From a virus: a stretch of DNA of 64,000 nt. The position numbers were made by a program, and so were the translations under genes. Of the stretch, positions 27,643 to 50,632 are shown piece by piece. Every line of letters starts with the position of its first letter. Within the stretch, counting starts at the first letter, position 1. Where the stretch lies: UHGV virus genome UHGV-1430915. One strand, 5' to 3'. The notes under the pieces are model-generated. The model did no database searches, was not told the origin of the DNA, and saw only the letters and a list, made by a program, of their open reading frames with translations.

Positions 27643-27671
27643 TTGACATGACCACACGGATGTGGTATTGT
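27643..27671 (+). promoter_or_regulatory. sigma70-like promoter TTGACA-N17-TATTGT with spacer hairpin CCACA-cgga-TGTGG
   Basis: Consensus -35, 17-nt spacer. Confidence 0.45.
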
Positions 27672-27702
27672 TACCCAGTAAAATGTTAAGGAGAGTTTAA
27701 CC

Positions 27703-27909
27703 ATGAAAGATTTTCTGTTGGCAATTTTATTCATGGCAGCATGCTTTGCCTGTGGTGTCGTGTTTGCAGGTGAAACAGCGTATCTTGTAGATGTATATCG
27801 GGACAATGGTAAACGTATTTGCCTTTATGAAACAAGCCAAGGTGAGCTCTACGAGCTTGTGAAACAAGGCGAGGCTGGATCTTGTCCTCGGACTCACTTC
27901 TTCGAATAA
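27703..27909 (+). CDS. small secreted/lipoprotein-like protein
   Basis: N-terminal hydrophobic segment with Cys (MAACFAC) then soluble domain; 68 aa. Confidence 0.4.
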   Translation: MKDFLLAILFMAACFACGVVFAGETAYLVDVYRDNGKRICLYETSQGELYELVKQGEAGSCPRTHFFE

Positions 27910-27919
27910 TGGTGGTAAT

Positions 27920-28138
27920 ATGGCTTTAGAAGGCACTGATTATATTCACGATTATCGTGGGAGTGCAGTGTATGTGGGAGATACTGTTGCAGTATACTAC
28001 GGTTATGGTTCCCTAGAAACAGCGAAGGTCATACAGATCAAGAATGACCGTGCTAAGCTTGAAGTTTATTACTCTAATGGCGAAAGATCGATTTCTAAGT
28101 GGAAAGATGGTCATTGTATGGTCAAATTGGAGGGCTGA
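27920..28138 (+). CDS. hypothetical protein
   Basis: 72-aa ORF. Confidence 0.4.
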   Translation: MALEGTDYIHDYRGSAVYVGDTVAVYYGYGSLETAKVIQIKNDRAKLEVYYSNGERSISKWKDGHCMVKLEG

Positions 28139-28602
28139 TGGAAGACGGACGTTTAATGAAGTCTGAACGCAGGCTTATTGTGCAACTGATCCCGGAAACA
28201 GCTTGGTATAATAACCTCAGAAACGCTGTGAAGAAGAGTGAGTGGGATAAGATCCGTAAGAAGTGCTACAGAGAAGCCAACTACACTTGTGAGGTGTGCG
28301 GTGGTAAAGGCAGCAAACATCCGGTGGAGTGTCATGAACTTTACACTTTCGAAGAGGGAGTGATCCGGCTTGTCGGACTGATAGCGTTGTGCCCAGATTG
28401 TCACACATCGGTGCATCCTGGTTTAGCAAATATCCGTGGAAAGTATGCTCAGGCAGTTAATCAGTTGGCTAAGGTGAATAAGATCACCAAGGGTATGGCA
28501 GAGGCGTATTACCGAGACTGCTTTGCAGAGTGGCGTGAGCTTAGTAAAGTTCCAGAATGGAAGACTGACTTTTCGTGGATAGAGGGTTACCTTGATGGCT
28601 AA
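28138..28602 (+). CDS. HNH-type endonuclease-like zinc-finger protein
   Basis: CEVCGG ... VECHEL ... LCPDCH arrangement typical of HNH nucleases; start at ATG overlapping upstream stop (TGATG). Confidence 0.5.
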   Translation: MEDGRLMKSERRLIVQLIPETAWYNNLRNAVKKSEWDKIRKKCYREANYTCEVCGGKGSKHPVECHELYTFEEGVIRLVGLIALCPDCHTSVHPGLANIRGKYAQAVNQLAKVNKITKGMAEAYYRDCFAEWRELSKVPEWKTDFSWIEGYLDG

Positions 28603-28885
28603 GAAACCTGTAAAAGAGAAATTCGATAAGACAGCTTTTGTATTTGATACGCCTCTGGACGACATTATCAGAGGTATGCAAGCACTGTATCGAAAGGCTG
28701 AATCTGAGCAGTTGTCTGAATCAGAACTTTACTGGCTTGGTTGGTGGGAGTTAAACCTGCCTAAAGCTGAAAGTTCTTGTCTGAGAACTGTTAAAACGTG
28801 CGCCCAAGAAAACGCCGCACTTGGAATCTACCACAAAAGGAAAAGACCAACAAAAAGCTCTCCAAGAAAGACTAAAAAGTCTTGA
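28592..28885 (+). CDS. hypothetical protein
   Basis: 97-aa ORF with basic C-terminus. Confidence 0.4.
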   Translation: MMAKKPVKEKFDKTAFVFDTPLDDIIRGMQALYRKAESEQLSESELYWLGWWELNLPKAESSCLRTVKTCAQENAALGIYHKRKRPTKSSPRKTKKS

Positions 28886-28911
28886 CAAAAGTGCTATTAA
28901 TCTGATATTAT
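28882..28911 (+). promoter_or_regulatory. sigma70-like promoter TTGACA-N18-TATTAT
   Basis: Consensus hexamers upstream of 28945 ORF. Confidence 0.45.
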
Positions 28912-28944
28912 CAGTCAGATATTTATAAACTAGGAGAACTAGAC

Positions 28945-29253
28945 ATGCTTAAAATTTTTATTGTTGAAGATAAAGATATTGTCCAGTTGTATGCAAACGA
29001 GAATCATAAAGGTATGATCCTGAAGAAGGCAAGCAACCTTCATGAAAACACCATTCAACCTGGCGATGTAATTAAGATCTGTGGCTATCTGATACCAGAC
29101 TCCTTGATGAAAATAACCCACCACTGGGGGTCTAATCCGTTCCTTTTTGAAAAATATTGGGATGTTGAGTCACTTATTGCAGAGAGTGATGATGCATTCC
29201 ATTACAGCATCCAACCATCTTGCAGAATAACTAACAGGAGGGTCTTTGAGTAG
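28945..29253 (+). CDS. hypothetical protein
   Basis: 102-aa ORF with AGGAGA RBS. Confidence 0.45.
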   Translation: MLKIFIVEDKDIVQLYANENHKGMILKKASNLHENTIQPGDVIKICGYLIPDSLMKITHHWGSNPFLFEKYWDVESLIAESDDAFHYSIQPSCRITNRRVFE

Positions 29254-30385
29254 AGAATATCCGCTTATTGAGTCCATAGATTGTCTAGCTGATCTTCTTG
29301 AACCTGACGCTATAGTTTATTATGACTTCGATCAGGTTGCATATCAAGCTGCAGCAAGTTGTGAAAAAAGGACAATTGAGGTAACACATAAAGCCTCAGG
29401 ACGTAAGAAGGTGTTTAAAACACGAACAGAGTTTTGGGGGAGACAGAAGAACGCAGTTGGTGGTTGGTTAAAGGCTGAGAACACCAACCGTGAAGCTGCA
29501 TGTAAAAAAGCTGGTAAGGAGTTTATTCCGTGGACACGAGAAGATTTCGATGTCTTGGATATCCAAACCCCTGATCCTGTAGAGAACTGCTTGCACACAA
29601 TTAAGTGTAAAGCTAATGCAGTCCTTAACTATCTCGGTATTCCTGAAGATCGGTGCGTAGGAGTGCTTGGGGGTACTGGTAATTTCAGACTAGATCTTCC
29701 CATGCCGGAACGATATAAAGCCAACCGTAACAATACTCTTCGACCACTGTTGCTTGAAGATGCAAGACAGTATCTCCAAAAGCAATATAACGCTCAAGTG
29801 ATCAACGGTATTGAAGCTGACGACTGGTTAGCTATCCAGCAATTTGAAGGTTGGAACCACTACCAGAAAACAGGCAAGTTCAACAAGTTTATTATCTCTA
29901 TAGATAAGGACCAGCGAACACTTCCTGGGCTTGTATTCGATCCGATGAGGAACGATAAAGGTGATTTTGTAAGAGAGACACCTATGCTCATTGATAACGG
30001 TATGGGTAACATATTCATGAAACCAAACGGCGATGTTGGTGGGTATGGAATGTTGTTCTTCGGTTATCAAATGCTATGTGGTGACTCAGCTGACAATATT
30101 AAGCCTTACCAAGGTCTTATTGGTAAAGGGAAGTTTGGAGATGCATCTGCATTCTCCTTGCTGTCCCAGTGCAGCACACCGAAAGAGATGTGGTTAACAA
30201 TCATTGATCAGTATAAAAAATGGTTTCCGAAAGGTGCTGTTAAGTATACCGATTTCAATGGTATCGACCGTAGGATTTCCGTAGGTCAGTGGATGAGTAT
30301 AATTTTTGACTGTTTGTATATGAAGCGAACATTCAATGATCAAACAAAACTTGTTAACGTTCTTAGAAATGTTGGAGCAATTTGA
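29246..30385 (+). CDS. 5-prime-3-prime exonuclease / flap endonuclease (FEN, RNase H-like)
   Basis: Motifs GIEADDWLA and LCGDSADNI characteristic of the Pol I 5-prime nuclease / T5 D15 family. Confidence 0.7.
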   Translation: MSREYPLIESIDCLADLLEPDAIVYYDFDQVAYQAAASCEKRTIEVTHKASGRKKVFKTRTEFWGRQKNAVGGWLKAENTNREAACKKAGKEFIPWTREDFDVLDIQTPDPVENCLHTIKCKANAVLNYLGIPEDRCVGVLGGTGNFRLDLPMPERYKANRNNTLRPLLLEDARQYLQKQYNAQVINGIEADDWLAIQQFEGWNHYQKTGKFNKFIISIDKDQRTLPGLVFDPMRNDKGDFVRETPMLIDNGMGNIFMKPNGDVGGYGMLFFGYQMLCGDSADNIKPYQGLIGKGKFGDASAFSLLSQCSTPKEMWLTIIDQYKKWFPKGAVKYTDFNGIDRRISVGQWMSIIFDCLYMKRTFNDQTKLVNVLRNVGAI

Positions 30386-30708
30386 TGACTAAAAATTCTG
30401 TAGATAATGCAATTATGGAAGCTGTTTTTGAGGATGATCATACAACAGGGAACCTTAAAACAAAAAATACATTTATTGTTGCTACAGGTATGTGGCGGTT
30501 GTATGAAGATGACACTATTGCATACATCTTGTATACTGATGATTACGCAGATGATCGTGTATGGTCTGCTGTTTTAAAAGAAGATTGTGAGCTGATTGAG
30601 GGCGAGCGGTTATGCATGTTTACCAGCGTGGAAACAGACGTTAAGCTTTGCTCTCTTGTGCTATTCAAAGACAAAGCTTATTCCCCAGATGAAGAGGAAA
30701 CAGCATGA
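30382..30708 (+). CDS. hypothetical protein
   Basis: 108-aa acidic ORF. Confidence 0.4.
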   Translation: MMTKNSVDNAIMEAVFEDDHTTGNLKTKNTFIVATGMWRLYEDDTIAYILYTDDYADDRVWSAVLKEDCELIEGERLCMFTSVETDVKLCSLVLFKDKAYSPDEEETA

Positions 30709-31334
30709 GAGAAAGACTGCTGTCTATAGACCAGTCTCTTACCCACACAGCCTGTGTTGTATGGGACGATGGTAGGCCTGTTCATAAGGTTGTGTTACGC
30801 ACCCAAAGCTCATCTGCAAAAGAGAAGAAACCAGGGACGGTTTCTTTTGCAACAGCGGCTGAGCGTATTGACTGGATCTGCAAACAGGTTAGATATTATA
30901 TCCACACGCACGGCGTTGACACCGTGGTTATGGAAGGGCTCTCCTTCGGATCGCGAGGAGATGCCACACGTGAACTGGCTGGGTTGTTTTACGGTCTTGA
31001 AGTTATGCTTTGGGATGCTTTAGCAGATTGTGAAAATGACGGCCTGTTTAAGGTTCACACAGTGACACCAACAACTGCCAAAAAGTTTGCTCGTAGTCAT
31101 CTTCCTGAAGAACTTGCTTTTGAGGAGAAGAAAAAGCTTGACAAAAGGACAGGTAAAGAGCATACTGTGAAGAAACCTGTTACGATGGATAAAAAGTTGA
31201 TGGTTAAGGCCTGCGAAGTATCTGAACCCGGGTTCCTGGATGGGATCAACTTGGTACAAGGTAAGGCCGATCTCGCAGATGCTTATTGGATAGGTAGGGC
31301 GCATCTGGAGGGATTATCGCAAAGCGTAAAATAA
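30705..31334 (+). CDS. RuvC-like Holliday junction resolvase
   Basis: N-terminal LSIDQS..ACVVWDD strand with Asp, VVMEGLSFG Glu block, C-terminal DAYWIGRAH resembling RuvC catalytic residues. Confidence 0.45.
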   Translation: MRERLLSIDQSLTHTACVVWDDGRPVHKVVLRTQSSSAKEKKPGTVSFATAAERIDWICKQVRYYIHTHGVDTVVMEGLSFGSRGDATRELAGLFYGLEVMLWDALADCENDGLFKVHTVTPTTAKKFARSHLPEELAFEEKKKLDKRTGKEHTVKKPVTMDKKLMVKACEVSEPGFLDGINLVQGKADLADAYWIGRAHLEGLSQSVK

Positions 31335-31411
31335 GAAAGAAAGCTGTCAAAGCCCCCGTCCATAGCGGGTGGCTAAAAGATTCTAAGGACATAGCCGACT
31401 TTCGGAAAGAA

Positions 31412-31891
31412 TTGTCAGAAGAGCAGGATGGTCTTGATCCAATCTTGTGCGAACCACTTCGTAAGCCTTGTTTAGATCATGATCATCTGACTGGTCGTTG
31501 CAGGGGTGTTTTGTCCCAATGCACTAATACCTTTGAGGGGTATGTGCTTAAATACTGGATGAAATACTGTAACGAGTATACAGATTGCAGTTTATCAGAG
31601 GCGTTACGCAGGATGGCTGACTATCTGGAGAAAGACTACAGCGACTTCCCGCTCCACAAAAACTACAGAGATGATATGACAAAGTTCTTGAGGAGATGCT
31701 CTAAAGCTACGATTATTGCACGTGCAGAATCAGATCTCGGTCTTGTCATTAATTCAGAGTATACCAAGCATGAGGCTATTGAGTCCTACATGCAGGAGTT
31801 TATAAAGAAAACTGAGGAGAGAGATTTCTATGGGGACGAAAAAGGTATTCAATCCTTGCGATTCAGTTCTGATCAGGATGAAATACCGTAA
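31412..31891 (+). CDS. endonuclease VII-like (T4 gp49 family) junction-resolving nuclease
   Basis: Signature C-x3-C-LDHDH-x-TG-x-C-RG-x-L-x-x-C-N matches EndoVII zinc/HNH core. Confidence 0.7.
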   Translation: MSEEQDGLDPILCEPLRKPCLDHDHLTGRCRGVLSQCTNTFEGYVLKYWMKYCNEYTDCSLSEALRRMADYLEKDYSDFPLHKNYRDDMTKFLRRCSKATIIARAESDLGLVINSEYTKHEAIESYMQEFIKKTEERDFYGDEKGIQSLRFSSDQDEIP

Positions 31892-32063
31892 CTGGAAAGG
31901 TGTTGTTGCAGATCGCTGCGTTACTGAGCCTAATTTATGGTTTGGCTCTACAGAGTATCATAAAGAAGAGCAGTGGTTGATGCATGCATTTGACGTAGAT
32001 AAGGGCGAATACCGTGACTTCGCTTTAAAAGACATTCTTCAGTTTTACTAAGGAATCTTAACG

Positions 32064-33047
32064 ATGATGACAAAGTTAACTCTTGAGCAAATTTTAACAC
32101 TAAAGCAACAGGGATACACTAATAGACAAATTGCTCGTGAATTTTTAGGGCGTGAGTCGCGTGAAAGCTGGATCCGACTACAGCTTAAACGTGCACAAGA
32201 GAATATGTCAGAGATTGTAGGAGAGGCAACGGAGCGCTTCCTTGAAGAACATAAAGGTGCTAAAGTTTGGGTGTATGACACAGAGACATCTCCAACAAAC
32301 GGCTGGTTCTTTGGGCATTATAAGACCAACATTCAAACCTGCGGTATTGAAATTATGCCCTATATGCTGACTTTCGCAGGTAAGTGGTTAGATAGCCCTA
32401 GCGTGGTTGACTGTGGTCTTCCTGATTACAAAATGTGGGACGAGGATATCCACAACGATCTTGAACTGATTCAAGATTTGTGGTATTATCTGGATAAATG
32501 TGATGTAGCAGTAGCGCACAACTCCGGTTTTGACTGTGGGTGGGCCAACCAACGATTTGCATTTCACGGTTTGCCGCCAACAAGTCCATACAAAGAGGTT
32601 GACACCCTCAAGATGATTAAAAAGGCATTCCGTTTGAATGCAAACACGTTAGAGTATGCATGTAAATACTTCCAACTGGCCCGACAGAAGCTGATTGACC
32701 ACACATTTGAAATGTGGATCAAGTGTGTTCATGGTGATCTTGAGGCGTTTAAACAGATGCGGGAGTATAATGTTGGGGACATCTTGTCTCTGGAAGGCCT
32801 GTATTTGCTGGCGCGTCCGTTTGCTAAGCAGCACCCCAACATGTCATTGTACTACCAAGATGAGGAGTCAAAAGTTCGTTGCCCACGTTGTGGTGGAGAA
32901 CACCTTCACGAGGAAGAAGCTTTGGCGTATACTCAGCTGAGTGCATTTAAAACATACCGCTGCGAAGGTTGTGGATCTGTTGTTCGTGATCGTAACAACA
33001 TCCGTACTAGGGAAGAGATGAAAAACACCCTTATTCAGATAATCTAA
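32064..33047 (+). CDS. DEDD-family 3-prime-5-prime exonuclease with N-terminal HTH and C-terminal zinc ribbon
   Basis: Exo I VWVYDTETS, Exo II HNSGFDCGW, Exo III YNVGD; HTH-like TNRQIAREF; CPRCG...CEGCG. Confidence 0.6.
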   Translation: MMTKLTLEQILTLKQQGYTNRQIAREFLGRESRESWIRLQLKRAQENMSEIVGEATERFLEEHKGAKVWVYDTETSPTNGWFFGHYKTNIQTCGIEIMPYMLTFAGKWLDSPSVVDCGLPDYKMWDEDIHNDLELIQDLWYYLDKCDVAVAHNSGFDCGWANQRFAFHGLPPTSPYKEVDTLKMIKKAFRLNANTLEYACKYFQLARQKLIDHTFEMWIKCVHGDLEAFKQMREYNVGDILSLEGLYLLARPFAKQHPNMSLYYQDEESKVRCPRCGGEHLHEEEALAYTQLSAFKTYRCEGCGSVVRDRNNIRTREEMKNTLIQII

Positions 33048-33062
33048 CAAATAGAGGGAGGC

Positions 33063-33899
33063 TTGCGCCTCCCTTTTCCTTTTGGAGGCACTTTGAGCAA
33101 GAAAGAGTCCAACGACAAATATTACACAGACCCCGAGTATGCAGAATATCTTGTTGGTAAAGTAAAAGGTAAGTATGGGAATTGTGCATACGTTGAGCCT
33201 TCTGCTGGAAAGGGTTCTTTTTCAAAACTATTTTCAGAGATACTGTCGTATGATTTGGTACCAGACCCTGAATTTGAAGGCCCAACCCCGTGTATTAAGG
33301 CAAACTTCTTAGAGGTGTATCCCAAGGCCGATGTATTCATAGGTAATCCTCCATTCGGCAAAAATTCGTCTTTAGCTTGCAAGTTCTTTAACCACTGTGC
33401 ATCATTGCTAGAGCCTGGTGGAGCTATAGCCTTCATCTTGCCACGGACTTTTGAAAAAATATTTTTTGCAAACAAACTGGACATGTCGATGCACCTTATT
33501 TACAGTGAAAGGTGCCCCAAGAACTCGTTTTTACTTAACGGCAAACCTTATGACGTGCCATGTGTTTTCCAAATTTGGGAGAAAAAGGTGTGCAGTAGGG
33601 ATCCTGTAGAGATCGGGGAGAATAAGTTATTTTCTTTTGGCACACCGAATGATTATGACTTCTGTATAAGACGTGTTGGGTATAATGCTGGGAAAGTATT
33701 GGGAGATGATGACCCAAAATCTGAAGAATCAACATATTTCATAAAATCTTTAGTTGATGGTATTGACAGAGTGTTTGTTGAGTGCTATTCTTCTTTTCAA
33801 GAAGAAGCAGGTAAGACTGCTGGAATGAAGAGTATAGGCAAGAAAGAACTACAATACATTTTGGAGACCAGGTATGATCAAAAGCATAGACTTGACTAA
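33063..33899 (+). CDS. N6-adenine DNA methyltransferase (NPPF motif)
   Basis: SAM-binding VEPSAGKGSF and catalytic IGNPPF motifs. Confidence 0.55.
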   Translation: MRLPFPFGGTLSKKESNDKYYTDPEYAEYLVGKVKGKYGNCAYVEPSAGKGSFSKLFSEILSYDLVPDPEFEGPTPCIKANFLEVYPKADVFIGNPPFGKNSSLACKFFNHCASLLEPGGAIAFILPRTFEKIFFANKLDMSMHLIYSERCPKNSFLLNGKPYDVPCVFQIWEKKVCSRDPVEIGENKLFSFGTPNDYDFCIRRVGYNAGKVLGDDDPKSEESTYFIKSLVDGIDRVFVECYSSFQEEAGKTAGMKSIGKKELQYILETRYDQKHRLD

Positions 33900-43583: not shown

Positions 43584-43613
43584 TTGACAAAAGCCACAAG
43601 GATGTGGCATATT
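43584..43613 (+). promoter_or_regulatory. weak sigma70-like promoter with hairpin CCACA-agga-TGTGG
   Basis: TTGACA followed by hairpin and TATTGT-like element; weaker -10 spacing. Confidence 0.35.
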
Positions 43614-43643
43614 GTTATCACACAGTAAACTAGGAGGTGCAGT

Positions 43644-43760
43644 ATGTCTACAGGTATTTATAAAATTTGCAAGTGCGGTTGTCATTGCAATCTTCGTTGG
43701 TGTAAGGCACTGGACGATTTTATTTGGCATTGTCCTAAATGCGATGCGGAGTACTTATGA
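43644..43760 (+). CDS. small Cys-rich zinc-ribbon protein (38 aa)
   Basis: ATG after AGGAGG RBS; sequence MSTGIYKICKCGCHCNLRWC...HCPKCDAEYL; stop overlaps nrdG start (ATGA). Confidence 0.4.
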   Translation: MSTGIYKICKCGCHCNLRWCKALDDFIWHCPKCDAEYL

Positions 43761-44230
43761 ATATTGTCGGATACACAGAAATATCCTACACCGAAGGGCC
43801 GGGTCTCAGGACGGCCTTGTGGGTATCTGGGTGCCCACACGCTTGTCCTGGTTGCTTTAATCAAGCATTTTGGTCAAAAGATAAGGGAAGAGAATTCACC
43901 GAAGAAGATTTGCAGAGAATTTTGTCAGATTTAGACAATGAATCTATATGCGGTATTTCTTTGCTTGGTGGAGAACCTTTGGCTACGTATAATGAGCCCG
44001 GTATTATTAAACTTATGAGGAGAATTAAGGAAAAGTTTGGTGACAAGAAAACTATTCTTGTGTATACTGGGTTCACATTTGAGCATATCTCTAGTGATGT
44101 TCTTGAGCTGGCTGATATCATCATTGATGGCAAGTATGTAAAAGATTTACCAACAAAGAAACCATTCCGAGGCAGCGATAACCAAAGAATGTTTAAAAAG
44201 GTAGCAGGCGGTTGGGTTCAGGTTGACTAG
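43757..44230 (+). CDS. nrdG: anaerobic ribonucleotide reductase activating enzyme (radical SAM)
   Basis: N-terminal Cys cluster GCPHACPGC typical of NrdG; follows nrdD. Confidence 0.75.
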   Translation: MNIVGYTEISYTEGPGLRTALWVSGCPHACPGCFNQAFWSKDKGREFTEEDLQRILSDLDNESICGISLLGGEPLATYNEPGIIKLMRRIKEKFGDKKTILVYTGFTFEHISSDVLELADIIIDGKYVKDLPTKKPFRGSDNQRMFKKVAGGWVQVD

Positions 44231-44263: not shown

Positions 44264-44292
44264 TATCGTAATGAAAGCAGAGGAGGTGCCAA

Positions 44293-44753: not shown

Positions 44754-44791
44754 AAGTTCTTGACACATCTCAATCTGAAAGGAGTCCCAAC

Positions 44792-45580
44792 ATGGGTCGA
44801 GCTAAAGAAACAAAACGCATGCGTGATGAAGCCAAAGAGGCTCGCAAATCTGATCGTCTGCGTAAGGCTGCTGAGAAATTTGCTGACGAACGAGAGCACA
44901 CAGCTCCAGCTCTCAGACCAATGAACAAAAAGCAGCAAAAGTATCTTGATTATCTAGGATCGCGTAAGATTATTATTGTAAACGGTGTGTTTGGATCCGG
45001 TAAGACATTCATGGCATCCGCATATGCAGGTGATCTTTTGCGTAAGAACGAGATTGATAAGATCATTGTTGCACGCCCTTACGTTCAGACAGGAAAGACT
45101 TCAGGGTTTAAACCTGGAAACGCAATGCAGAAACTGTGGCCCTATCTCCGAAGCATGATGGACACGATTTGTCGTCGTGTTGGCAAAGGTGCTTTTGCCG
45201 CAATGCTGGGGGATGGTCAGAACAGTCGTATCGAGATCTGTGAAGTTGAAAGCATTCGTGGTCGTAGTTTCGATGAGCGGTGCTTTGTCCTAATTGACGA
45301 GGCACAGCAAACTAACCCTGAAGAAATGTTATCAATTATCACAAGGATCTCTGATCAGGCCACACTTGTAATCATGGGTGATAATAGCCAACGTGACATC
45401 CCTGGTAAGTCTGGGCTTGCATGGGTAACGGATTTCTTTACTCGTCATCCAGATCCTGAGGTTGGGATGATTAGCTTTGATAGTCCAGACGATGTCGTTC
45501 GTTCTGGGTTGGGTCGTCAGATCGCACTCAATCTTATTGAGGATCGTGCAAATCATATTTGGACCCCTGTTTCCGAGTAA
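44792..45580 (+). CDS. phoH: PhoH-like ATPase
   Basis: Walker A VNGVFGSGKTFMA and overall PhoH-family architecture, 262 aa. Confidence 0.8.
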   Translation: MGRAKETKRMRDEAKEARKSDRLRKAAEKFADEREHTAPALRPMNKKQQKYLDYLGSRKIIIVNGVFGSGKTFMASAYAGDLLRKNEIDKIIVARPYVQTGKTSGFKPGNAMQKLWPYLRSMMDTICRRVGKGAFAAMLGDGQNSRIEICEVESIRGRSFDERCFVLIDEAQQTNPEEMLSIITRISDQATLVIMGDNSQRDIPGKSGLAWVTDFFTRHPDPEVGMISFDSPDDVVRSGLGRQIALNLIEDRANHIWTPVSE

Positions 45581-45624
45581 TACAGAAGGGTGGTTATTCC
45601 ACCCTTAAATATCTAAAACAGTTG

Positions 45625-45653
45625 TTGACAAATAGGTAAGCTTTAGATATTAT
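45625..45653 (+). promoter_or_regulatory. sigma70-like promoter TTGACA-N17-TATTAT
   Basis: Consensus hexamers upstream of 45682 ORF. Confidence 0.5.
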
Positions 45654-45681
45654 TATCGGACAAAACAGAGAGAAGGACAGT

Positions 45682-45993
45682 ATGGCTACAATACAAGAGA
45701 AACTGAATAAAATATACTGCCTGTTTGTCTATAACGGCGAGACAATTTTGGCAAATAAGGGATCCAAGAATGTGTGGACCAAGGCCAGCGGTGGTAATAT
45801 AATTAACTTAGCGTTGCTACGTGAGCGCCGACACAGATTCTTTATCGAGTCTCGAATTATTGAAAGCAGCACTTGCTACAGAACAGGCGATAAAGTAATT
45901 GTTGACAATGATACGTGGTATGTGGTAGACTGGCAATCATTGAGCTGTGATGCTTCTGACAATCGTAAGTATTCCATAGTGATTGCTAAATAA
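45682..45993 (+). CDS. hypothetical protein
   Basis: 103-aa ORF. Confidence 0.45.
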   Translation: MATIQEKLNKIYCLFVYNGETILANKGSKNVWTKASGGNIINLALLRERRHRFFIESRIIESSTCYRTGDKVIVDNDTWYVVDWQSLSCDASDNRKYSIVIAK

Positions 45994-46053
45994 AGGTAAA
46001 TGTGAATCAGGTTTAAATAAATAGCTTTCAACTTCCAATATTAAGGATTTCTC

Positions 46054-47103
46054 ATGAATTTAACACCTCGCAGAACCATGGTACACGGCATGAAAGAAAA
46101 ACAGAACGGTTTCGAACCTATGAGTAATAAAATGTTTGGTATGCCGGGCGGTATCATGGAAACATACAGCTACCCAACACCTGTTGTTGACCACGTTCTT
46201 TATATCGACGATTTGGAAGACTTACAAGACCATATGTCTCGTCTGCAGACGATCCGTATGGCTCAGCCGGAAGAAAGCATTCGGGTGATCATCAATAGCC
46301 CTGGGGGTTGCGTGCACATTGCAATGGCTTATCTGCAGGCATTCCGAGAGTCTCAGGCAAGCGTTGTCGTACACGCTGAAGGGATGTGCTGCTCAGCAGG
46401 AACAATCTTATGGCTGGGTTGCAAAGAACGCACTGTGGCTCCGGACACAGAATTTATGTTCCACTACTATCAAGGTGGCACTTATGGTAACGGTGTGAAC
46501 ATGAATACTCAGGTCAGCTACTGGAAAAAACGTTTTGAACGCCTGATTGAAAAATACTACGGTGGGGTGCTGACAGAAGATGAGATCGCATCCATCACAG
46601 CTGGCGGTGAAGTGTGGTTGGATGGAGAAGAGCTGGCATCTAGAACTGGTGCTATCATCTTGGACGATGAAAACATTCAGCGCATTCAGAATGGACAGAA
46701 ACCGAAAAAGCTTTTGGCAAAAAGAGATGAAGAAGGTGTGTTAGGTGAGGCAGGCCTTCCAGAGATTCACCAATGCACATCTTTGGACGAGCTGGTTCAT
46801 GCTGTTGAGTCTGCAAAAGAAAATGGTATGAAAGGTGATGTTCACACTGTGTTCCTGAATCTACAGATGGAGAGTGGTGAGACCGTTAAGATTGCACTAG
46901 GTGAGATTACCTCGGAAGATCTGCAGCGATTCTCTGTGGTAGAGCTTCAGGACATTTTGTCCCAATTGAAAACTACCCTGAACGGAGGTGAAGAAGTTCA
47001 GGTGAAAGATAAGACTCGCAAGCGTCTGGTGGACAATATTATTAAAACAGCAAAAGAGCTTAATGAAAAAATCCTGGGCGCAGGAATTGTCGAAGAAGCT
47101 TAA
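46054..47103 (+). CDS. ClpP-family serine protease-like protein with C-terminal extension
   Basis: ClpP signature INSPGGCV, Ser block GMCCSAG, His block FMFHYY; true start may be an internal Met. Confidence 0.65.
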   Translation: MNLTPRRTMVHGMKEKQNGFEPMSNKMFGMPGGIMETYSYPTPVVDHVLYIDDLEDLQDHMSRLQTIRMAQPEESIRVIINSPGGCVHIAMAYLQAFRESQASVVVHAEGMCCSAGTILWLGCKERTVAPDTEFMFHYYQGGTYGNGVNMNTQVSYWKKRFERLIEKYYGGVLTEDEIASITAGGEVWLDGEELASRTGAIILDDENIQRIQNGQKPKKLLAKRDEEGVLGEAGLPEIHQCTSLDELVHAVESAKENGMKGDVHTVFLNLQMESGETVKIALGEITSEDLQRFSVVELQDILSQLKTTLNGGEEVQVKDKTRKRLVDNIIKTAKELNEKILGAGIVEEA

Positions 47104-47115
47104 ACATTAATTCTA

Positions 47116-47140
47116 AAGCCCTCTTCGGAGGGCTTTTATG
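47116..47140 (+). terminator. intrinsic terminator
   Basis: AGCCCTC-ttcg-GAGGGCT hairpin followed by TTTTAT. Confidence 0.55.
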
Positions 47141-47154
47141 ATCTGGAGATTTGC

Positions 47155-47688
47155 ATGACTTGTGCTAGAAAACCTGACGAACAACGTAACGCCTATGATG
47201 AATATGTGACACCAGAGTGGTGTGCAGAAGGGTTGTATGACCTCATTCCGTTCCCAGAAGATTGGACCTATTTGGAGCCTTGCAGGAATAGCGCCTCAGG
47301 TGTGTTCTACTCCCGTATGCCGTTAGGATCTGCATGGGGAGAAATCCAAGAAGGTGTTGACTATCTGAATACAGAATACAACCATGTTGACTGTATTATC
47401 ACCAACCCGCCGTACAGCCTGGCTCGTGAGTTTGTGGACAAGGCGTTGAAAGATGCCGACGTAGTTATTATGCTTTTGCGTCTTAATTTTCTGGAAAGCA
47501 AGGCCAGATTTGAATGGTGGCTTGATAATGCCCCTACCACTGTGATCACAATATCTAAGCGTCCATCATTCCAATCGAATGGCAGAACTGACGGGCAAGC
47601 ATATGCATATTTTGTGTGGGACAAGAAGAACCGTTTAGACCTACCGCCATTTATGTGGTTGGCACCTCCGGAGGCAGACTTGAAATGA
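47155..47688 (+). CDS. Dam-like N6-adenine DNA methyltransferase (NPPY)
   Basis: YVTPEW N-terminal block and IITNPPYS catalytic motif, 177 aa. Confidence 0.6.
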   Translation: MTCARKPDEQRNAYDEYVTPEWCAEGLYDLIPFPEDWTYLEPCRNSASGVFYSRMPLGSAWGEIQEGVDYLNTEYNHVDCIITNPPYSLAREFVDKALKDADVVIMLLRLNFLESKARFEWWLDNAPTTVITISKRPSFQSNGRTDGQAYAYFVWDKKNRLDLPPFMWLAPPEADLK

Positions 47689-47969
47689 AAATGAGTGCTA
47701 AGGACAAGTTGCACCAGTTAGCGCTAAAACGTCCTGTAACTCTCCCTGACGAGCTTAACTCCATTTATGATGCGATTGTAGGGGAGATACAAAATAAGGC
47801 GTTAGCAGGCTTTCTGGGATGCGGATTTTCGATAAATCTTCCATCACACCTCTCAGACTACTTACCACACATCGTTGGGGATTTGAGGGCAGGAGGTCTG
47901 CAGGTGGATGTTGTTGGCATCTCCCCGGAGAAAAATAACACAGTTGCCTACTTGACAGTGACCTGGTAG
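47685..47969 (+). CDS. hypothetical protein
   Basis: ATGA overlap with methyltransferase stop. Confidence 0.4.
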   Translation: MKMSAKDKLHQLALKRPVTLPDELNSIYDAIVGEIQNKALAGFLGCGFSINLPSHLSDYLPHIVGDLRAGGLQVDVVGISPEKNNTVAYLTVTW

Positions 47970-48004
47970 TAGTGTATTTTGTTTTCAACAAGAGGGGGTC
48001 ATCT

Positions 48005-48244
48005 ATGTATAAGTCATTTTCAATCTACTCAAGACAGACAAAACACTACACAGAGATTCTGATCACTCAGAAAAAATCTGTGGAAGGTGAGTGGGAATAT
48101 CATCATAAAATGTTGCGTCCAGACTGGGTTTTTGATAGGCTTATTGCTATGATCCCTCTTGGAGAAGTATACCCTCTGACAGGTCATAGGGATGCTTGGG
48201 ATTTAATTGACTATATAGATTCATTTAAGGAGCCTAGATTATGA
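48005..48244 (+). CDS. hypothetical protein
   Basis: GAGGGGG RBS before ATG. Confidence 0.4.
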   Translation: MYKSFSIYSRQTKHYTEILITQKKSVEGEWEYHHKMLRPDWVFDRLIAMIPLGEVYPLTGHRDAWDLIDYIDSFKEPRL

Positions 48245-48639
48245 AGATTGAGATTACTGAAGAAGGTAAGAAAGTCTCTGGTAACTATGCAACAGTTATC
48301 CGTGATGTAATGTTCGAAGTCACTAAGATTGGCACATCCAAGGTTGGTCAAACGGTGAGTGTGCAAGGTAATATCACCTCAGGAGAGAAGATATTCATCG
48401 TAATAAAAGGCCAGGACCCTGTAGAAGGGACAGTTGGACGTGGCGGATACCTGTGTATCTCTGAAGAGCCTCGCATGCTAGTTGCTGATAACTCTACAGG
48501 TAAAAAGCGGGTATGTAACACGGACGAGGTGATGATTATCTATCCAGTCAACCCGGATGATCCGGCAACATGGATTGTGGGAAATGAAATCTTCTCTTTA
48601 GAAGAGTTATCCTTCCCAGCTCCGCGATCTGTTCAGTAA
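48241..48639 (+). CDS. hypothetical protein
   Basis: 132-aa ORF, MKIEIT start. Confidence 0.45.
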   Translation: MKIEITEEGKKVSGNYATVIRDVMFEVTKIGTSKVGQTVSVQGNITSGEKIFIVIKGQDPVEGTVGRGGYLCISEEPRMLVADNSTGKKRVCNTDEVMIIYPVNPDDPATWIVGNEIFSLEELSFPAPRSVQ

Positions 48640-48678
48640 TAATTTATCTTACCAGGGACGGTAAAAGTAGGAGGTAGC

Positions 48679-48912
48679 ATGAAAGTTAAATTTCTTACAG
48701 ATTTAGGGTACCCTTCCTTGGTTGACTGTGTTGGTAAAATTGTGGAAGCAAAACGGCTATCTGCAAACGATAATGTTGTCATGGTTAAGGGAAAAGATTT
48801 ACTAGCTGCAGGTGCAGAGTCTGGCAGGATCTCTCCTGACTATACGTATTACCTGTCTTTAAGTAATCTACCAGAACGAGGCGGCAAAGGCCTTGAAGTT
48901 GTGGAGGAGTGA
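48679..48912 (+). CDS. small protein, MKVK paralog family
   Basis: Shares MKVK..D..Y.G....GK.....KG.DL.AAGA pattern with ORFs at 52236, 52453, 54590. Confidence 0.5.
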   Translation: MKVKFLTDLGYPSLVDCVGKIVEAKRLSANDNVVMVKGKDLLAAGAESGRISPDYTYYLSLSNLPERGGKGLEVVEE

Positions 48913-49454
48913 CAGGTATGCTTCTGATTAACTGGGAAGACCTCTATGGGGACAAAGACCCTGTTGCGTTTGTTGATCGTAGGTGGAGGTACACTGAAGA
49001 ACAACTGGCTGCAAAAAATTTAACTGCAAAACGCAGAAAGATCATCCAGTGCAAGTACAAATACGCACAGTTTGCTGCAAAAGTGTCTCCACAAATCGAG
49101 AGTTTTGTACTTAAATTGTATGACGAGTACCTCAAATTCAAATTGGATTTTGTACAGGTATACCGTGCACAGGTACGTCCAGATACCAACATCTGTAGAT
49201 GGAAGGTTGTTTGTGATGGTAAAGATTTGCCGCTCAGTTTGACAATTGAGTGGCGTTGGGGGTATCATGAGTGCGGTTTGTATGATATTTGGGATGTCAT
49301 TGTAGATCCTGCTAAGTACCTGAACACAGAGGAGCTGGAATATATCAATAAGGTTATTCTAGATATGTTTTTCAGCTACACCCATGAAAACTCTGAGAAA
49401 GAACGGGATAATTTTCTTGACACCCTCGGCAACCACCTGCAGTGTACAATTTAA
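48909..49454 (+). CDS. hypothetical protein
   Basis: 181-aa ORF. Confidence 0.45.
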   Translation: MTGMLLINWEDLYGDKDPVAFVDRRWRYTEEQLAAKNLTAKRRKIIQCKYKYAQFAAKVSPQIESFVLKLYDEYLKFKLDFVQVYRAQVRPDTNICRWKVVCDGKDLPLSLTIEWRWGYHECGLYDIWDVIVDPAKYLNTEELEYINKVILDMFFSYTHENSEKERDNFLDTLGNHLQCTI

Positions 49455-49472
49455 CCTACAAAGGAGGAGCCA

Positions 49473-49709
49473 ATGAGTATAGATGCTGTGCTGATAGGTT
49501 ACCTGGTAGTAGCTGTTATAACAGCAGTAATCTTGGCAGGTATATGCATCGTGTCTACCCGAAGGGTGAAGTTTGATGATTTTATCACCATCATCACTGC
49601 TGCGCCCTTTTGGCCTGTTGTTATCTTCATCGTAATAATGTGCCTAGTTGATTACCACAAGAATATCCGTAAGGAGAAAAAGGAGAGTAGGGATGGATAC
49701 CGCACCTAA
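49473..49709 (+). CDS. small two-transmembrane protein (holin-like)
   Basis: Two hydrophobic helices and charged C-terminal tail KNIRKEKKESRDGYRT; 78 aa. Confidence 0.35.
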   Translation: MSIDAVLIGYLVVAVITAVILAGICIVSTRRVKFDDFITIITAAPFWPVVIFIVIMCLVDYHKNIRKEKKESRDGYRT

Positions 49710-49928
49710 AACTGTTTATACTGTTCTTAAAGAGATTGCATTCTACGCAGATCTTAGCCGGGCACCTTTATGGGAAAAGAATATGTATTTAAAATGGTGC
49801 GTGAAATTAGGGGGGCCTTCTAATGTTTCAAGCCATGTTTATTGAAATGCTCTCTGGGGTATTACTGCTGGTAGCCATTTTAGGTGGCGCGGCGCTGATG
49901 TATAATTATCTTGAAAAAGGGGACAGTA

Positions 49929-50114
49929 ATGACAAAAAATAAATCCTTAGAACAGGCTGAAAACCTTCTCCACGAGCTGGTAAAGGAGTGGAAAGTTGAA
50001 TACTCAGATTTTAATGCAAGAGAGGGGGAAGATTATTGGCCTACGGAGCGCTCAGAGGGAGAGTGGTATCAAGATTTCATAGAATGGCTATATCAGACGT
50101 GCGATGAGGGGTGA
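49929..50114 (+). CDS. hypothetical protein
   Basis: Start at ATG MTKNK; acidic. Confidence 0.35.
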   Translation: MTKNKSLEQAENLLHELVKEWKVEYSDFNAREGEDYWPTERSEGEWYQDFIEWLYQTCDEG

Positions 50115-50572
50115 CGATGTTTGTTAAATATGTAAAAACGTGCCTCAACAACCTTGGTAGAGAGCATTGGTACACACTGCTTGAAAAAGGAGAAATTTTA
50201 ACAAAATCTGGAAAGATAACTTTGATACCTTTGGACGATAAAGACCCGTCACTACTTGTCATAGATGATTACGTTACAGGTGTGTCGTACGAGGTATCTG
50301 TGGAGAGGTTAATACGCAGATCTGGAGGTCCTTATGACCGAAGAGAGTATGTTTTCGATTCCGTTACAGAGAAGGAAGATCCGTCTCTAATGTTTAGGAT
50401 GGTAATCAGGGATATGAAATCATCTATAAATAGGATCGTAAAGGACATTAAGGAGCCTTTTAGGGTAAAAGTTAAGAAGTTTTTTGATTCTAAGATCAAC
50501 ATACTTGCAGTTGTGCTAGGCGTAATTCAACTTCTGTTAATTTTGCACTATTTTGAACTGTTGTTTAAGTAA
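50111..50572 (+). CDS. hypothetical protein with C-terminal hydrophobic helix
   Basis: 153-aa ORF. Confidence 0.4.
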   Translation: MTMFVKYVKTCLNNLGREHWYTLLEKGEILTKSGKITLIPLDDKDPSLLVIDDYVTGVSYEVSVERLIRRSGGPYDRREYVFDSVTEKEDPSLMFRMVIRDMKSSINRIVKDIKEPFRVKVKKFFDSKINILAVVLGVIQLLLILHYFELLFK

Positions 50573-50632
50573 TGTGCATTATGGCACAAAGGATGTGCCA
50601 TAACTAAATAAACTAAGAAAGAGGTAGAGAGA

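What the first reader, a model, noticed from the sequence alone, without database searches (positions are those of the whole stretch)
27643..50606. Recurrent hairpin motif CACA-(N)GGA-TGTG embedded in or next to promoters
Three sites share nearly the same short inverted repeat: CCACAcGGATGTGG (27652-27665, inside the spacer of TTGACA-N17-TATTGT), CCACAaGGATGTGG (43594-43607, again after a TTGACA) and atGGCACAaaGGATGTGCCat (50581-50601, just after a TTGAAC / CATTAT promoter). The conserved GGATGTG core and promoter association suggest a binding site for a phage or host regulator, or an RNA hairpin at the 5-prime end of early transcripts.
Basis: seen in the sequence. Interest (0 to 1): 0.5.

Follow-up and report, generated by a model that had tools for sequence, protein, structure and literature searches.

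The report
CsrA-type GGA hairpins overlapping phage promoters
The three repeated hairpins are real, belong to at least five short RNA hairpins between genes of this rV5-like E. coli phage, and look like binding sites for the host translational regulator CsrA, two of them built into promoters.

Summary
CACA-N1-2-GGATGTG occurs three times in the window, and nowhere else in the 137-kb genome of a 99% identical phage, against 0.08 expected. All three copies lie between genes, on the coding strand.

The window is a Vequintavirus (rV5-like coliphage). The three sites belong to a wider set: five sense-strand intergenic hairpins whose loops read A(N)GGA(X), against 0.3-0.4 expected, with none antisense.

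This loop on a short stem is the published high-affinity CsrA/RsmE site. Site 2 matches the CsrA SELEX consensus at 10 of 12 positions, and CsrB hairpins have the same form. Across relatives only loop positions N and X change. One stem shows a compensatory A-U to G-C change, and an alternative allele keeps the AAGGAU loop on an unrelated stem.

In sites 1 and 2 the hairpin fills the spacer of a sigma-70 promoter, and its 3' arm TGTGG doubles as a perfect extended -10 element. T4 and other T-even phages carry the identical 14-mer in the same position.

Best reading (about 0.5): dual-coded RNA sites for host CsrA in read-through transcripts. A DNA operator, another GGA-specific RNA factor, or pure promoter architecture are not excluded. 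Nothing here is experimental.

The parts
27652..27665 (+). Site 1 hairpin CCAC[ACGGAU]GUGG. It can also be drawn as a 5-6 bp stem with a CGGA tetraloop, extended to 27651-27666.
   Evidence: Sequence. It is in the minimum-energy fold and found by the loop scan. In Murica, rV5_ev146, naam, Gotham and an IMG/VR relative the only change is loop position X, U to C.
27643..27671 (+). Sigma-70 promoter enclosing site 1: -35 TTGACA (27643-27648), 17-nt spacer, extended -10 TGTGG (27661-27665, which is the 3' arm of the hairpin), -10 TATTGT (27666-27671).
   Evidence: Listed as P090 in rV5 Table S4 and annotated as a promoter in Gotham. The same promoter is present without the hairpin in more distant relatives L005/L007. 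T-17G-16T-15G-14 is the published extended -10 motif.
27688..27909 (+). Shine-Dalgarno AAGGAG (its GGA at 27690-27692, 32 nt after the loop GGA) and the downstream gene 27703-27909. The gene encodes a 68-aa protein with a signal-peptide or lipoprotein-like N-terminus and sits next to the endolysin gene.
   Evidence: It matches phrog_4641, unknown function. The SD GGA is not conserved in all relatives.
43594..43607 (+). Site 2 hairpin CCAC[AAGGAU]GUGG. ACAAGGAUGU is an exact match to the core of the CsrA SELEX consensus.
   Evidence: Invariant in 9 Vequintavirus sequences, except for a U.G wobble at the outer pair in NHEP1. The identical 14-mer is found in T4 and T-even contigs.
43584..43613 (+). 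Sigma-70 promoter enclosing site 2: -35 TTGACA (43584-43589), 18-nt spacer, extended -10 TGTGG (43603-43607), -10 CATATT (43608-43613).
   Evidence: The block cTTGACAAAAG-14mer-CATATT is invariant across relatives, while the sequence after it varies.
43632..44230 (+). Shine-Dalgarno AGGAGG (its GGA at 43633-43635, 33 nt after the loop GGA), a 38-aa Cys-rich ORF (43644-43760) and nrdG (43757-44230).
   Evidence: phrog_20137. Annotations.
48649..48664 (+). Site 4, a new hairpin UUACC[AGGGAC]GGUAA. It lies 4 nt before the Shine-Dalgarno AGGAGG (48669-48674) of ORF 48679-48912, and the two GGA triplets are 14 nt apart.
   Evidence: In an IMG/VR relative the loop is AAGGAU and the stem carries a compensatory A-U to G-C change. 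rV5-type phages have a U.G wobble. All cells are paired.
50579..50603 (+). Site 3 hairpin: a 10-bp stem UUAUGGCACA/UGUGCCAUAA with an AAGGA pentaloop (GGA at 50591-50593). It begins 9 nt after the stop of ORF 50111-50572 and ends 30 nt before ORF 50633-50980.
   Evidence: Folding z-score -3.7, with 0 of 200 shuffles folding as well. The 17-nt core is 100% conserved while the flanks fall to 77% identity.
50553..50582 (+). Promoter-like sequence next to site 3: TTGAAC-N18-CATTAT. It is not conserved. Relatives instead have TTGAAT-N16-TATAAT, or TTGAGA-N19-CATAGT with the hairpin in the spacer.
   Evidence: Whether any of these is used is not known.
54283..54296 (+). Site 5, a new hairpin GGGA[AAGGAA]UCCC. 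It lies 7 nt after a TATAAT (54270-54275) and 26 nt before ORF 54322-54585.
   Evidence: In Murica the only change is loop position X, A to G. The downstream gene is a distant paralogue of the gene after site 4.

Best explanation
The motif is the most conspicuous part of a family of short RNA hairpins. They lie in the gaps between + strand genes of this rV5-like phage and display A(N)GGA(X) in the loop. That is the form of the high-affinity binding site of the host post-transcriptional regulator CsrA.

Proposed mechanism (inferred, not shown):
- Long transcripts that read through from upstream genes contain the hairpin.
- A CsrA dimer docks on the hairpin.
- Where a second GGA lies in the Shine-Dalgarno sequence 14-33 nt downstream (sites 1, 2 and 4), the dimer bridges to it and lowers, or otherwise tunes, translation of the next gene. 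That gene is usually a small protein of unknown function; two of the five (after sites 1 and 3) have membrane- or lipoprotein-like N-termini.

In sites 1 and 2 the same DNA also carries a sigma-70 promoter. The 14-nt hairpin fills the 17-18-nt spacer, the only part of a packed 63-nt gap where the sequence is free. Its 3' arm TGTGG serves as a perfect extended -10 element. Transcripts started at that promoter therefore lack the hairpin and would escape the control. This gives two classes of mRNA for the same gene.
For: Shown by computation:
1. The exact motif occurs 3 times against 0.08 expected, with no other copy in 137 kb.
2. The CsrA/RsmE high-affinity site is an ANGGAX hexaloop directly on a stem, and AAGGA/AGGGA pentaloops also bind tightly (PMC4005645). 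[quoted passage not shown] Site 1 is CCAC[ACGGAU]GUGG (9/12). Site 2 is CCAC[AAGGAU]GUGG (10/12). Site 3 has an AAGGA pentaloop.
3. A scan for such loops on stems of at least 4 Watson-Crick pairs found 6 sense-strand hits in the 2.8 kb of intergenic DNA of the + gene block. One of them is inside a CDS in the NHEP1 annotation, which leaves 5. Dinucleotide shuffles gave 0.29 +/- 0.54 (maximum 4 in 2000). There were 0 antisense hits and 1 hit in about 33 kb of coding sequence. A per-loop Poisson test gives 4.6e-5.
4. The same detector finds 6 hairpins in the 369-nt CsrA sponge CsrB as a positive control. It finds 0 in 40 kb of phAPEC8, 0 in 40 kb of SSE121 and 1 in 50 kb of T4.
5. Natural variation in the loops is confined to N and X: site 1 U/C, site 4 G/A and C/U, site 5 A/G. 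The A and the GGA are invariant.
6. Site 4 has a compensatory A-U to G-C change and a U.G wobble. NHEP1 site 2 has a U.G wobble that breaks the DNA palindrome but keeps RNA pairing.
7. In phages naam and WM the nrdD end is a different allele, yet a hairpin with the same AAGGAU loop on an unrelated stem GAGAGC/GCUCUC sits at the same place.
8. All hairpins appear in minimum-energy folds of the intergenic RNA.
9. There is a precedent: CsrA represses the ColE7 lysis lipoprotein gene cel through a GGA in an intercistronic hairpin loop plus the SD.
Against: - No binding, transcript or expression data exist for this phage. Every step from 'looks like a CsrA site' to 'is bound and regulates' is inference.
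- In sites 1 and 2, and in T4 and other T-even phages, the hairpin sits in exactly the same register inside a promoter spacer. This points to a DNA-level role. The dual-coding argument explains the register but is post hoc.
- The loop definition was taken from the CsrA literature only after the motif had suggested it.
- Sites 3 and 5 have no GGA in the Shine-Dalgarno sequence, and the SD GGA of site 1 is lost in some relatives.
- The family is absent from the neighbouring genus Seunavirus and from Phapecoctavirus, although their hosts also have CsrA.
- Covariation rests on very few independent sequences. The shuffle control for site 4 reached the observed value in 139 of 500 shuffles.
- GGA loops are also what T4 RegB recognises.
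Confidence: 0.5

Rival explanations
1. DNA operator. The inverted repeat CCACA-N4-TGTGG in the promoter spacer binds a dimeric DNA-binding protein that switches these sigma-70 promoters. The protein could be a host protein shared by rV5-like and T4-like phages, or a phage protein.
For: Sites 1 and 2, T4 (TTTACT-N17-TATAAT) and three T-even contigs (GTTTAC-N4-14mer-TACTAT) all carry the repeat in the same register between -35 and -10. The whole promoter, spacer included, is invariant even where the downstream protein has diverged to 40% identity. The phage encodes at least one annotated transcriptional regulator.
Against: - The distance between arms is 4 nt (sites 1 and 2), 5 nt (site 3), or 6 nt where the inner A-U pair is lost (site 1 in most relatives).
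- The conserved centre is asymmetric, and all copies have the same orientation relative to transcription.
- The NHEP1 variant breaks the palindrome but keeps U.G pairing.
- Sites 4 and 5 and the naam/WM allele share only the loop and are not in promoter spacers.
- Many IMG/VR copies of the 14-mer lie upstream of genes without any promoter hexamers.
- I could not recall a known E. coli regulator with this site. This rests on my own knowledge and was not tested.
Confidence: 0.15
2. An RNA hairpin read by something other than CsrA. Candidates are a phage-encoded GGA-specific endoribonuclease or RNA-binding protein (as T4 RegB cuts GGAG/U in intergenic regions of early mRNAs), a ribosome standby site, or a processing or stability element.
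For: RegB alone recognises the GGA triplet. It cuts efficiently when GGA is unpaired and the fourth base is constrained, and its targets are intergenic GGAG/U sequences of early genes (PMC3014915). The T4 copy of the 14-mer is such a GGAU in a loop. AAGGA loops are partly complementary to the anti-Shine-Dalgarno sequence (my own knowledge).
Against: - tblastn finds no RegB homologue in the window or in the full NHEP1 genome: best E = 4.3.
- Strong RegB sites have an A-rich 3' context, GGAGRAYARAA, and RegB is inhibited by secondary structure.
- The ACGGAU/ACGGAC and AGGGAC loops are poor Shine-Dalgarno mimics.
- Stems of 4-5 bp without a U-run are weak barriers to nucleases.
- The pattern of constant A and GGA with free N and X is exactly the CsrA/RsmE code.
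Confidence: 0.2
3. Promoter architecture only. GGATGTGG is a favoured extended -10 context (TGTGn) of strong phage promoters, and the complementary 5' arm has no separate function.
For: TGTGG directly abuts the -10 hexamer in site 1, site 2 and T4 and equals the T-17G-16T-15G-14 motif. Another promoter in the window, at 14876 on the - strand, has GATGTGG-TAGAAT without any hairpin. T4 early promoters are known to hold extra conserved positions (PMC2988021).
Against: - It does not explain the conserved CCACA arm.
- It does not explain the 8-10-bp stem of site 3, which is perfectly conserved while its neighbouring promoter-like hexamers change.
- It does not explain the excess of GGA-loop hairpins outside promoters, or the copies of the 14-mer without promoter hexamers in other phages.
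- Relatives L005/L007 keep the site 1 promoter with an unrelated spacer.
Confidence: 0.1

Closest known systems
CsrA/RsmA-RsmE binding hairpins (glgC leader, pgaA, hcnA RBS, repeats of CsrB/RsmZ)
   Same: GGA sits in the loop of a 4-6-bp hairpin. The loop has the form A(N)GGA(X). The sites match RUACARGGAUGU at 9-10 of 12 positions. Three sites have a second GGA in the Shine-Dalgarno sequence 14-33 nt downstream. CsrB hairpins such as acacc[AGGAU]ggugu have the same shape.
   Different: The sites are in a virulent phage, mostly between cistrons rather than in a 5' leader, and two are embedded in a promoter spacer. Binding has not been tested. My literature searches found no description of CsrA sites in transcripts of lytic coliphages.
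ColE7 cel control by CsrA (T1 hairpin loop plus SD)
   Same: It is an extrachromosomal element. The GGA is in the loop of an intercistronic hairpin and a second GGA is in the SD of a small lipoprotein lysis gene, and CsrA represses translation. Site 1 precedes a small lipoprotein-like gene next to the endolysin gene. The naam/WM allele has the GGA loop on a terminator hairpin, like T1.
   Different: The function of the phage gene is unknown. Sites 1-5 are not terminators. No experiments have been done.
PeSLs (promoter-early stem-loops) of T4-type phages
   Same: Both are composite intergenic cassettes of a strong sigma-70-like early promoter plus a stem-loop, sitting in front of small genes of unknown function and linked to gene shuffling. 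The T4 and T-even copies of the 14-mer lie in promoters that fit the PST/T4 PeSL consensus TTTACW-N17-TAYWAT.
   Different: In PeSLs the stem-loop lies just upstream of the promoter and acts as a terminator, and its sequence is variable (AGNA-loop-TCNT, GN-loop-CN). Here the stem-loop is inside the spacer, has no U-run and has a conserved GGA loop.
T4 RegB endoribonuclease sites
   Same: Both involve an unpaired GGA followed by G or U, in intergenic regions of early transcripts.
   Different: No RegB homologue was detected in this phage. The 3' context is not A-rich, and the motif is held in a stem-loop.
Extended -10 (TGn / TRTGn) sigma-70 promoters
   Same: TGTGG directly upstream of TATTGT or CATATT, with a consensus TTGACA -35 at 17-18 nt.
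   Different: The rest of the spacer is complementary to the TGTGn element and carries a conserved GGA, which promoter function does not require.

Membership tests
CsrA/RsmA binding site | An invariant GGA triplet | tested here: met
   GGA is present in all five window sites and invariant in all relatives aligned.
CsrA/RsmA binding site | [quoted passage not shown] | tested here: met
   Loops are ACGGAU, AAGGAU, AGGGAC and AAGGAA on 4-5-bp stems, and AAGGA on a 10-bp stem. All are in minimum-energy folds. The definition comes from PMC4005645.
CsrA/RsmA binding site | Similarity to the SELEX consensus RUACARGGAUGU | tested here: met
   Site 2 matches 10/12, with ACAAGGAUGU exact. Site 1 matches 9/12. 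Site 3 matches 8/12, or 10/12 with a one-base insertion. Sites 4 and 5 match only in the loop. The ColE7 sites accepted in the literature match 9 and 7 positions.
CsrA/RsmA binding site | A second GGA at or near the Shine-Dalgarno sequence, within reach of the dimer | tested here: inconclusive
   Present at 32, 33 and 14 nt for sites 1, 2 and 4. Absent for sites 3 and 5, and lost at site 1 in Gotham and naam.
CsrA/RsmA binding site | Lies in a transcribed RNA on the sense strand | tested here: inconclusive
   All sites are on the coding strand between co-directional genes, and there are none antisense. No transcript data are available. For sites 1 and 2 only read-through RNA would contain the hairpin.
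CsrA/RsmA binding site | Bound by CsrA, with csrA-dependent expression | not testable with these tools
   Needs gel shifts, CLIP or reporter assays.
Sigma-70 promoter with extended -10 | -35 hexamer, 16-18-nt spacer, -10 hexamer with A2 and T6, and TG at -15/-14 | tested here: met
   Site 1 is TTGACA-N17-TATTGT with TGTGG. Site 2 is TTGACA-N18-CATATT with TGTGG. Both are conserved. Site 3 is inconclusive: its hexamers differ between relatives.
Operator of a dimeric DNA-binding regulator | Symmetric half-sites at a fixed spacing, with symmetry kept in variants | tested here: not met
   Spacing is 4, 5 or 6 nt. The conserved centre is asymmetric. The NHEP1 variant breaks the symmetry. Other family members have unrelated arms.
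PeSL (promoter-early stem-loop) | A terminator stem-loop located just upstream of an early sigma-70-like promoter | tested here: not met
   The stem-loop lies between -35 and -10, or away from any promoter, and no U-run follows. The naam/WM allele (hairpin plus T-run, then a promoter) does fit.
Intrinsic terminator | A G+C-rich stem followed by a run of U | tested here: not met
   Sites 1-5 have no T-run. Only the naam/WM allele has one.
RegB-type cleavage site | A RegB-family nuclease encoded by the phage, and GGAG/U with an A-rich 3' context | tested here: not met
   tblastn with T4 RegB gave a best E of 4.3. The 3' context is the stem, not an A-rich run (one search gives the definition). 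Remote homologues cannot be excluded.

The most novel reading that the evidence does not exclude
Unrelated virulent coliphages (rV5-like and T4-like) have independently acquired or exchanged a dual-coded 14-nt module. As DNA it is the spacer plus extended -10 element of a strong sigma-70 promoter. As RNA it is a near-optimal CsrA hairpin. Host CsrA then discriminates between read-through mRNAs and mRNAs started at the local promoter for the same gene. More broadly, the phage plugs part of its gene expression into the host's growth-state regulator, or titrates that regulator.
Probability: 0.25. Interest if true: 0.75.

Novelty: new variant of a known kind. Interest (0 to 1): 0.6.

Why it matters
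CsrA is a central growth-state regulator of E. coli. In a CRISPRi screen, knocking it down gave the host a broad fitness advantage in the presence of several phages, which was put down to pleiotropy (PMC7553319). [quoted passage not shown]

If lytic phages carry high-affinity CsrA sites in front of specific genes, that gives a direct and testable link between host physiology and phage gene expression. It would also be an example of one short DNA segment encoding both a promoter spacer with its extended -10 element and a protein-binding RNA hairpin. The same 14-mer in a T4 early-type promoter means the idea can be tested in the best-studied phage.

For annotation, these promoters should not be treated as plain sigma-70 promoters.

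Tried and rejected
1. A phage-encoded CsrA. tblastn with E. coli, Pseudomonas and Bacillus CsrA found nothing in the window or in the full NHEP1 genome.
2. A phage RegB. tblastn with T4 RegB found nothing.
3. Known RNA families. Rfam at gathering thresholds found only six tRNAs.
4. A fourth copy in relatives L005-L007 (CCACAGGGATGTGG). It lies in a CDS at the codons for A-T-G-M-W. The homologous codons in this phage lack the GGA, so it is a coding coincidence.
5. IMG/VR as a source of relatives. It holds very few rV5-like contigs, and the endolysin query mostly fetched 40-kb prophage-like contigs.
6. Conservation of the family in other genera. There are none in 40 kb of Seunavirus SSE121 or 40 kb of Phapecoctavirus phAPEC8, so there is no cross-genus covariation.
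7. Conservation of the T4 copy at the rIIA.1 locus in distant T-even phages VR7 and JS98. It is absent there.
8. Scanning IMG/VR for the exact 14-mer. Compared with a loop-scrambled control, copies upstream of genes in sense orientation are only modestly enriched: 23/110 against 9/96, p = 0.03, and the hits are not independent.
9. A common downstream gene. The genes after copies of the 14-mer in different phages are unrelated.
10. The Daegelen and Brody rIIA papers, which might map the T4 promoter, are not in the library.
11. A terminator role for sites 1-5. Rejected because there is no U-run and the stems are weak.

Full report
**What the window is.** The region 27000-31000 is 99.3% identical to Escherichia phage NHEP1 and 87-98% identical to about 120 other Vequintavirus (rV5-like) phages. 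The finding lies in the long + strand block of DNA-metabolism genes and small unknown genes: endolysin, nrdA/B, nrdD/G, phoH, clpP-like and many short ORFs.

**The observation.**
- The exact pattern CACA-N1-2-GGATGTG has 3 matches on the + strand and none on the - strand. Markov simulations gave a mean of 0.08 and a maximum of 1.
- The looser one-mismatch test of the search tool is not significant on its own: 2 matches against 1.2 expected.
- In the 136.6 kb of NHEP1 that I assembled from three fetches, the same three places are the only matches.
- Each copy starts 9-13 nt after a stop codon and ends 30-37 nt before the next start codon on the same strand.

**Promoters.**
- Site 1 is TTGACA-N17-TATTGT. 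It is promoter P090 of the rV5 paper and a predicted promoter in phage Gotham. More distant relatives keep a promoter at this place (TTGACA-N17-TATACT) with an unrelated spacer and no hairpin.
- Site 2 is better read as TTGACA-N18-CATATT. The block from -35 to CATATT is invariant in nine relatives, while the bases after it vary.
- In both sites the 3' arm TGTGG abuts the -10 hexamer. It equals the published extended -10 motif T-17G-16T-15G-14. So part of the 'hairpin' has a plain promoter function.
- Another promoter in the window, at 14876 on the - strand, has GATGTGG-TAGAAT without any complementary arm.
- For site 3, the promoter-like hexamers differ between relatives while the hairpin does not.

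**The lead.** The shared core ACA-(N)-GGAUGU recalled the CsrA SELEX consensus, and I checked it in the literature.
- PMC4005645 defines the high-affinity CsrA/RsmE site as a hexaloop ANGGAX directly on a stem and reports that AAGGA and AGGGA pentaloops also bind tightly.
- CLIP data show GGA in apical loops in vivo (PMC5207318).
- Read this way, site 1 is CCAC[ACGGAU]GUGG, site 2 is CCAC[AAGGAU]GUGG, and site 3 is a 10-bp stem with an AAGGA loop.

**A wider family.**
- Using that definition, which is independent of the CACA/TGTG arms, I scanned for A(N)GGA(X) loops closed by at least four Watson-Crick pairs. For the ANGGAX hexaloop alone, the whole window has 7 hairpins against 2.2 +/- 1.5 in shuffles.
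- Within the intergenic DNA of the + block (2.8 kb by a crude gene caller) there are 6 sense-strand hits. One of them, at 25670, is inside a CDS in the NHEP1 annotation. Two thousand dinucleotide shuffles gave 0.29 +/- 0.54 (maximum 4). There are none antisense, and only one in about 33 kb of coding sequence. Counting loop matches directly, 88 candidate loops give 0.38 expected stems, and the Poisson P for 5 or more is 4.6e-5.
- The two new members are site 4 (48649-48664, UUACC[AGGGAC]GGUAA, 4 nt before the AGGAGG of ORF 48679) and site 5 (54283-54296, GGGA[AAGGAA]UCCC).
- Over the whole NHEP1 genome, 7 of 23 such hairpins are intergenic and in sense orientation although intergenic DNA is 6.8% of the genome. 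Site 2 would be an eighth, but it is missed there because of a U.G pair. Three further copies lie outside this window.
- As a positive control, the detector finds 6 hairpins in the 369-nt CsrB RNA, for example acacc[AGGAU]ggugu.
- As negative controls, it finds none in 40 kb of phAPEC8, none in 40 kb of Seunavirus SSE121 and one in the first 50 kb of T4.

**Variation among relatives.**
- Site 1: the loop's last base is U or C.
- Site 4: the loop is AGGGAC or AAGGAU. A stem pair changes from A-U to G-C on both sides, and another becomes U.G. All cells remain paired, but with only four distinct sequences the shuffle control is not significant (139/500).
- Site 5: the loop's last base is A or G.
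- Site 3: the 17-nt core is unchanged while the flanks drop to 77% identity.
- So the changes seen in loops fall only on the two positions, N and X, that the CsrA/RsmE structures leave free.
- In NHEP1, site 2 starts with U instead of C. That keeps a U.G pair in RNA but breaks the DNA palindrome.
- In phages naam and WM the end of nrdD is a different allele and a 311-aa ORF is inserted. Directly after the nrdD stop codon there is GAGAGC[AAGGAU]GCUCUC followed by a T-run, which is the same loop on an unrelated stem.
- All hairpins appear in the minimum-energy folds. Site 3 has z = -3.7 and the naam hairpin z = -4.35.

**The same element in T4.**
- The one hit in the T4 control is taCCACAAGGATGTGGta, identical to site 2 over 14 nt. 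It lies between gene 60 and rIIA.1, again inside a promoter: TTTACT-N17-TATAAT, with TGTGG abutting TATAAT and a GAGGA Shine-Dalgarno sequence 29 nt further on.
It nevertheless includes three further T-even contigs with GTTTAC-N4-14mer-TACTAT in front of a gene that has diverged to 40% protein identity. It also includes several unrelated phage groups where the 14-mer sits 18-51 nt upstream of a gene with no promoter hexamers around it.
- Against a loop-scrambled control 14-mer, sense copies upstream of genes are modestly enriched (23/110 against 9/96, p = 0.03). The control's intergenic hits are mostly terminators.
- The T4 copy is not present at the rIIA.1 locus of VR7 or JS98.

**Weighing the explanations.**
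- The recurrence of the hairpin in one register inside promoter spacers is the strongest argument for a DNA-level function.
- It can also be explained by packing. These gaps are 54-63 nt and are filled from stop codon to Shine-Dalgarno sequence by a promoter. The spacer is the only free stretch, a 14-nt hairpin fits it, and the UGUGG arm can double as TGTGn. This is an inference made after the fact.
- A symmetric operator is hard to reconcile with the variable arm spacing, the conserved asymmetric centre, the single orientation, the U.G variant, and the members that share only the loop.
- A promoter-only reading does not explain the 5' arm, site 3, or the excess of GGA loops outside promoters.
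- Among RNA-level readers, T4 RegB recognises unpaired GGA followed by G or U in intergenic regions of early mRNAs. This phage has no detectable RegB, and strong RegB sites have an A-rich 3' context.
- The ColE7 cel case is a direct precedent: an intercistronic hairpin loop plus the SD, a small lysis lipoprotein gene, and repression by CsrA. Site 1 precedes a small lipoprotein-like gene beside the endolysin gene.

**What is shown and what is inferred.**
- Shown: the motif is non-random; it is part of a strand-specific intergenic family of GGA-loop hairpins; its form matches the published CsrA site; loop positions vary as that site allows; two copies are dual-coded with extended -10 promoters; the same 14-mer occurs in T-even promoters.
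- Inferred: that CsrA binds, that read-through RNA exists, that translation of the next gene is changed, and in which direction.
- The downstream genes have no known function, so no physiological rationale can be checked.

**Literature.** My searches found no description of this hairpin or of CsrA sites in transcripts of virulent coliphages. The nearest described objects are PeSL promoter/stem-loop cassettes of T4-type phages, in which the stem-loop is a terminator upstream of the promoter.

**Verdict.** This is a real and conserved element, most likely a CsrA-type RNA site dual-coded with promoters. I give that reading a confidence of about 0.5. It is a new variant of a known kind. Interest is 0.6, because it is cheap to test and extends to T4.

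Noticed in passing
L081 (T4 NC_000866) 2433-2450, - strand; IMG/VR loci L100/L157, L104, L185, L152: T4 carries the identical 14-mer CCACAAGGATGTGG in the spacer of TTTACT-N17-TATAAT between gene 60 and rIIA.1. Other T-even contigs have GTTTAC-N4-14mer-TACTAT before a gene that has diverged to 40% identity.
   Followed up: partly
L079 (naam) 18170-19290; L087 (WM) 395-1525: An alternative allele at site 2. The 3' end of nrdD is replaced and is followed by a terminator hairpin GAGAGC[AAGGAT]GCTCTC plus T-run, a promoter TTGACT-N17-TAGTAT, and an inserted 311-aa ORF before the 38-aa Cys-rich ORF. It looks like a mobile-gene insertion that kept a GGA loop.
   Followed up: partly
window 30825-30846, + strand: An 8-bp hairpin aagaaacc[AGGGAC]ggtttctt with a CsrA-type loop lies inside the RuvC-like resolvase CDS (30705-31334). 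It is the only such hairpin in about 33 kb of coding sequence of the block and is conserved in relatives.
   Followed up: no
window 55017-55038: An 8-bp inverted repeat tgcagata-ACGGAC-tatctgca (as read on the - strand) lies inside + strand coding sequence. Its purpose is unknown.
   Followed up: no
window 48679-48912 and 54322-54585: The genes that follow sites 4 and 5 are distant paralogues: both match phrog_5009, one strongly and one at E = 1.6e-4. So two of the hairpins precede members of one small protein family of unknown function.
   Followed up: no
window 43644-43760: A conserved 38-aa ORF with eight cysteines (MSTGIYKICKCGCHCNLRWCKALDDFIWHCPKCDAEYL) lies between nrdD and nrdG and overlaps the nrdG start. 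It matches phrog_20137, labelled 'ribonucleotide reductase'.
   Followed up: no
window 27644-27674: In the predicted fold of site 1 the -35 hexamer (UGACA) pairs with the -10 region (UGUUA), forming an outer stem around the hairpin. Site 2 does not show this.
   Followed up: no
window 14850-14882, - strand: The promoter TTGCCA-N17-TAGAAT has GATGTGG directly before the -10 hexamer but no complementary arm and no GGA. TGTGG seems to be a recurrent extended -10 element in this phage.
   Followed up: no
window 54240-54282: Just upstream of site 5 there is another hairpin (ACTTTCC...GAAAGGT) followed by a T-rich run and a TATAAT. This arrangement of a possible terminator followed by a promoter resembles a PeSL. 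The TATAAT is TGTAAT in relatives.
   Followed up: no
window 17535-18343, - strand: A cluster of six tRNA genes, two of them scoring near the Rfam threshold.
   Followed up: no
IMG/VR loci L114, L118, L156, L163, L168, L206: Six contigs of an unidentified phage group share aaccaccgCCACAAGGATGTGGcattaac about 30 nt upstream of a small membrane-protein gene, without recognisable -35 or -10 hexamers.
   Followed up: no
window 53504-53821: The phage encodes a homologue of the ribosome hibernation promoting factor (S30AE/HPF, as annotated in relatives). In E. coli, hibernation factors are themselves under CsrA control according to the title of PMC10746276. No GGA hairpin precedes the phage gene.
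   Followed up: no
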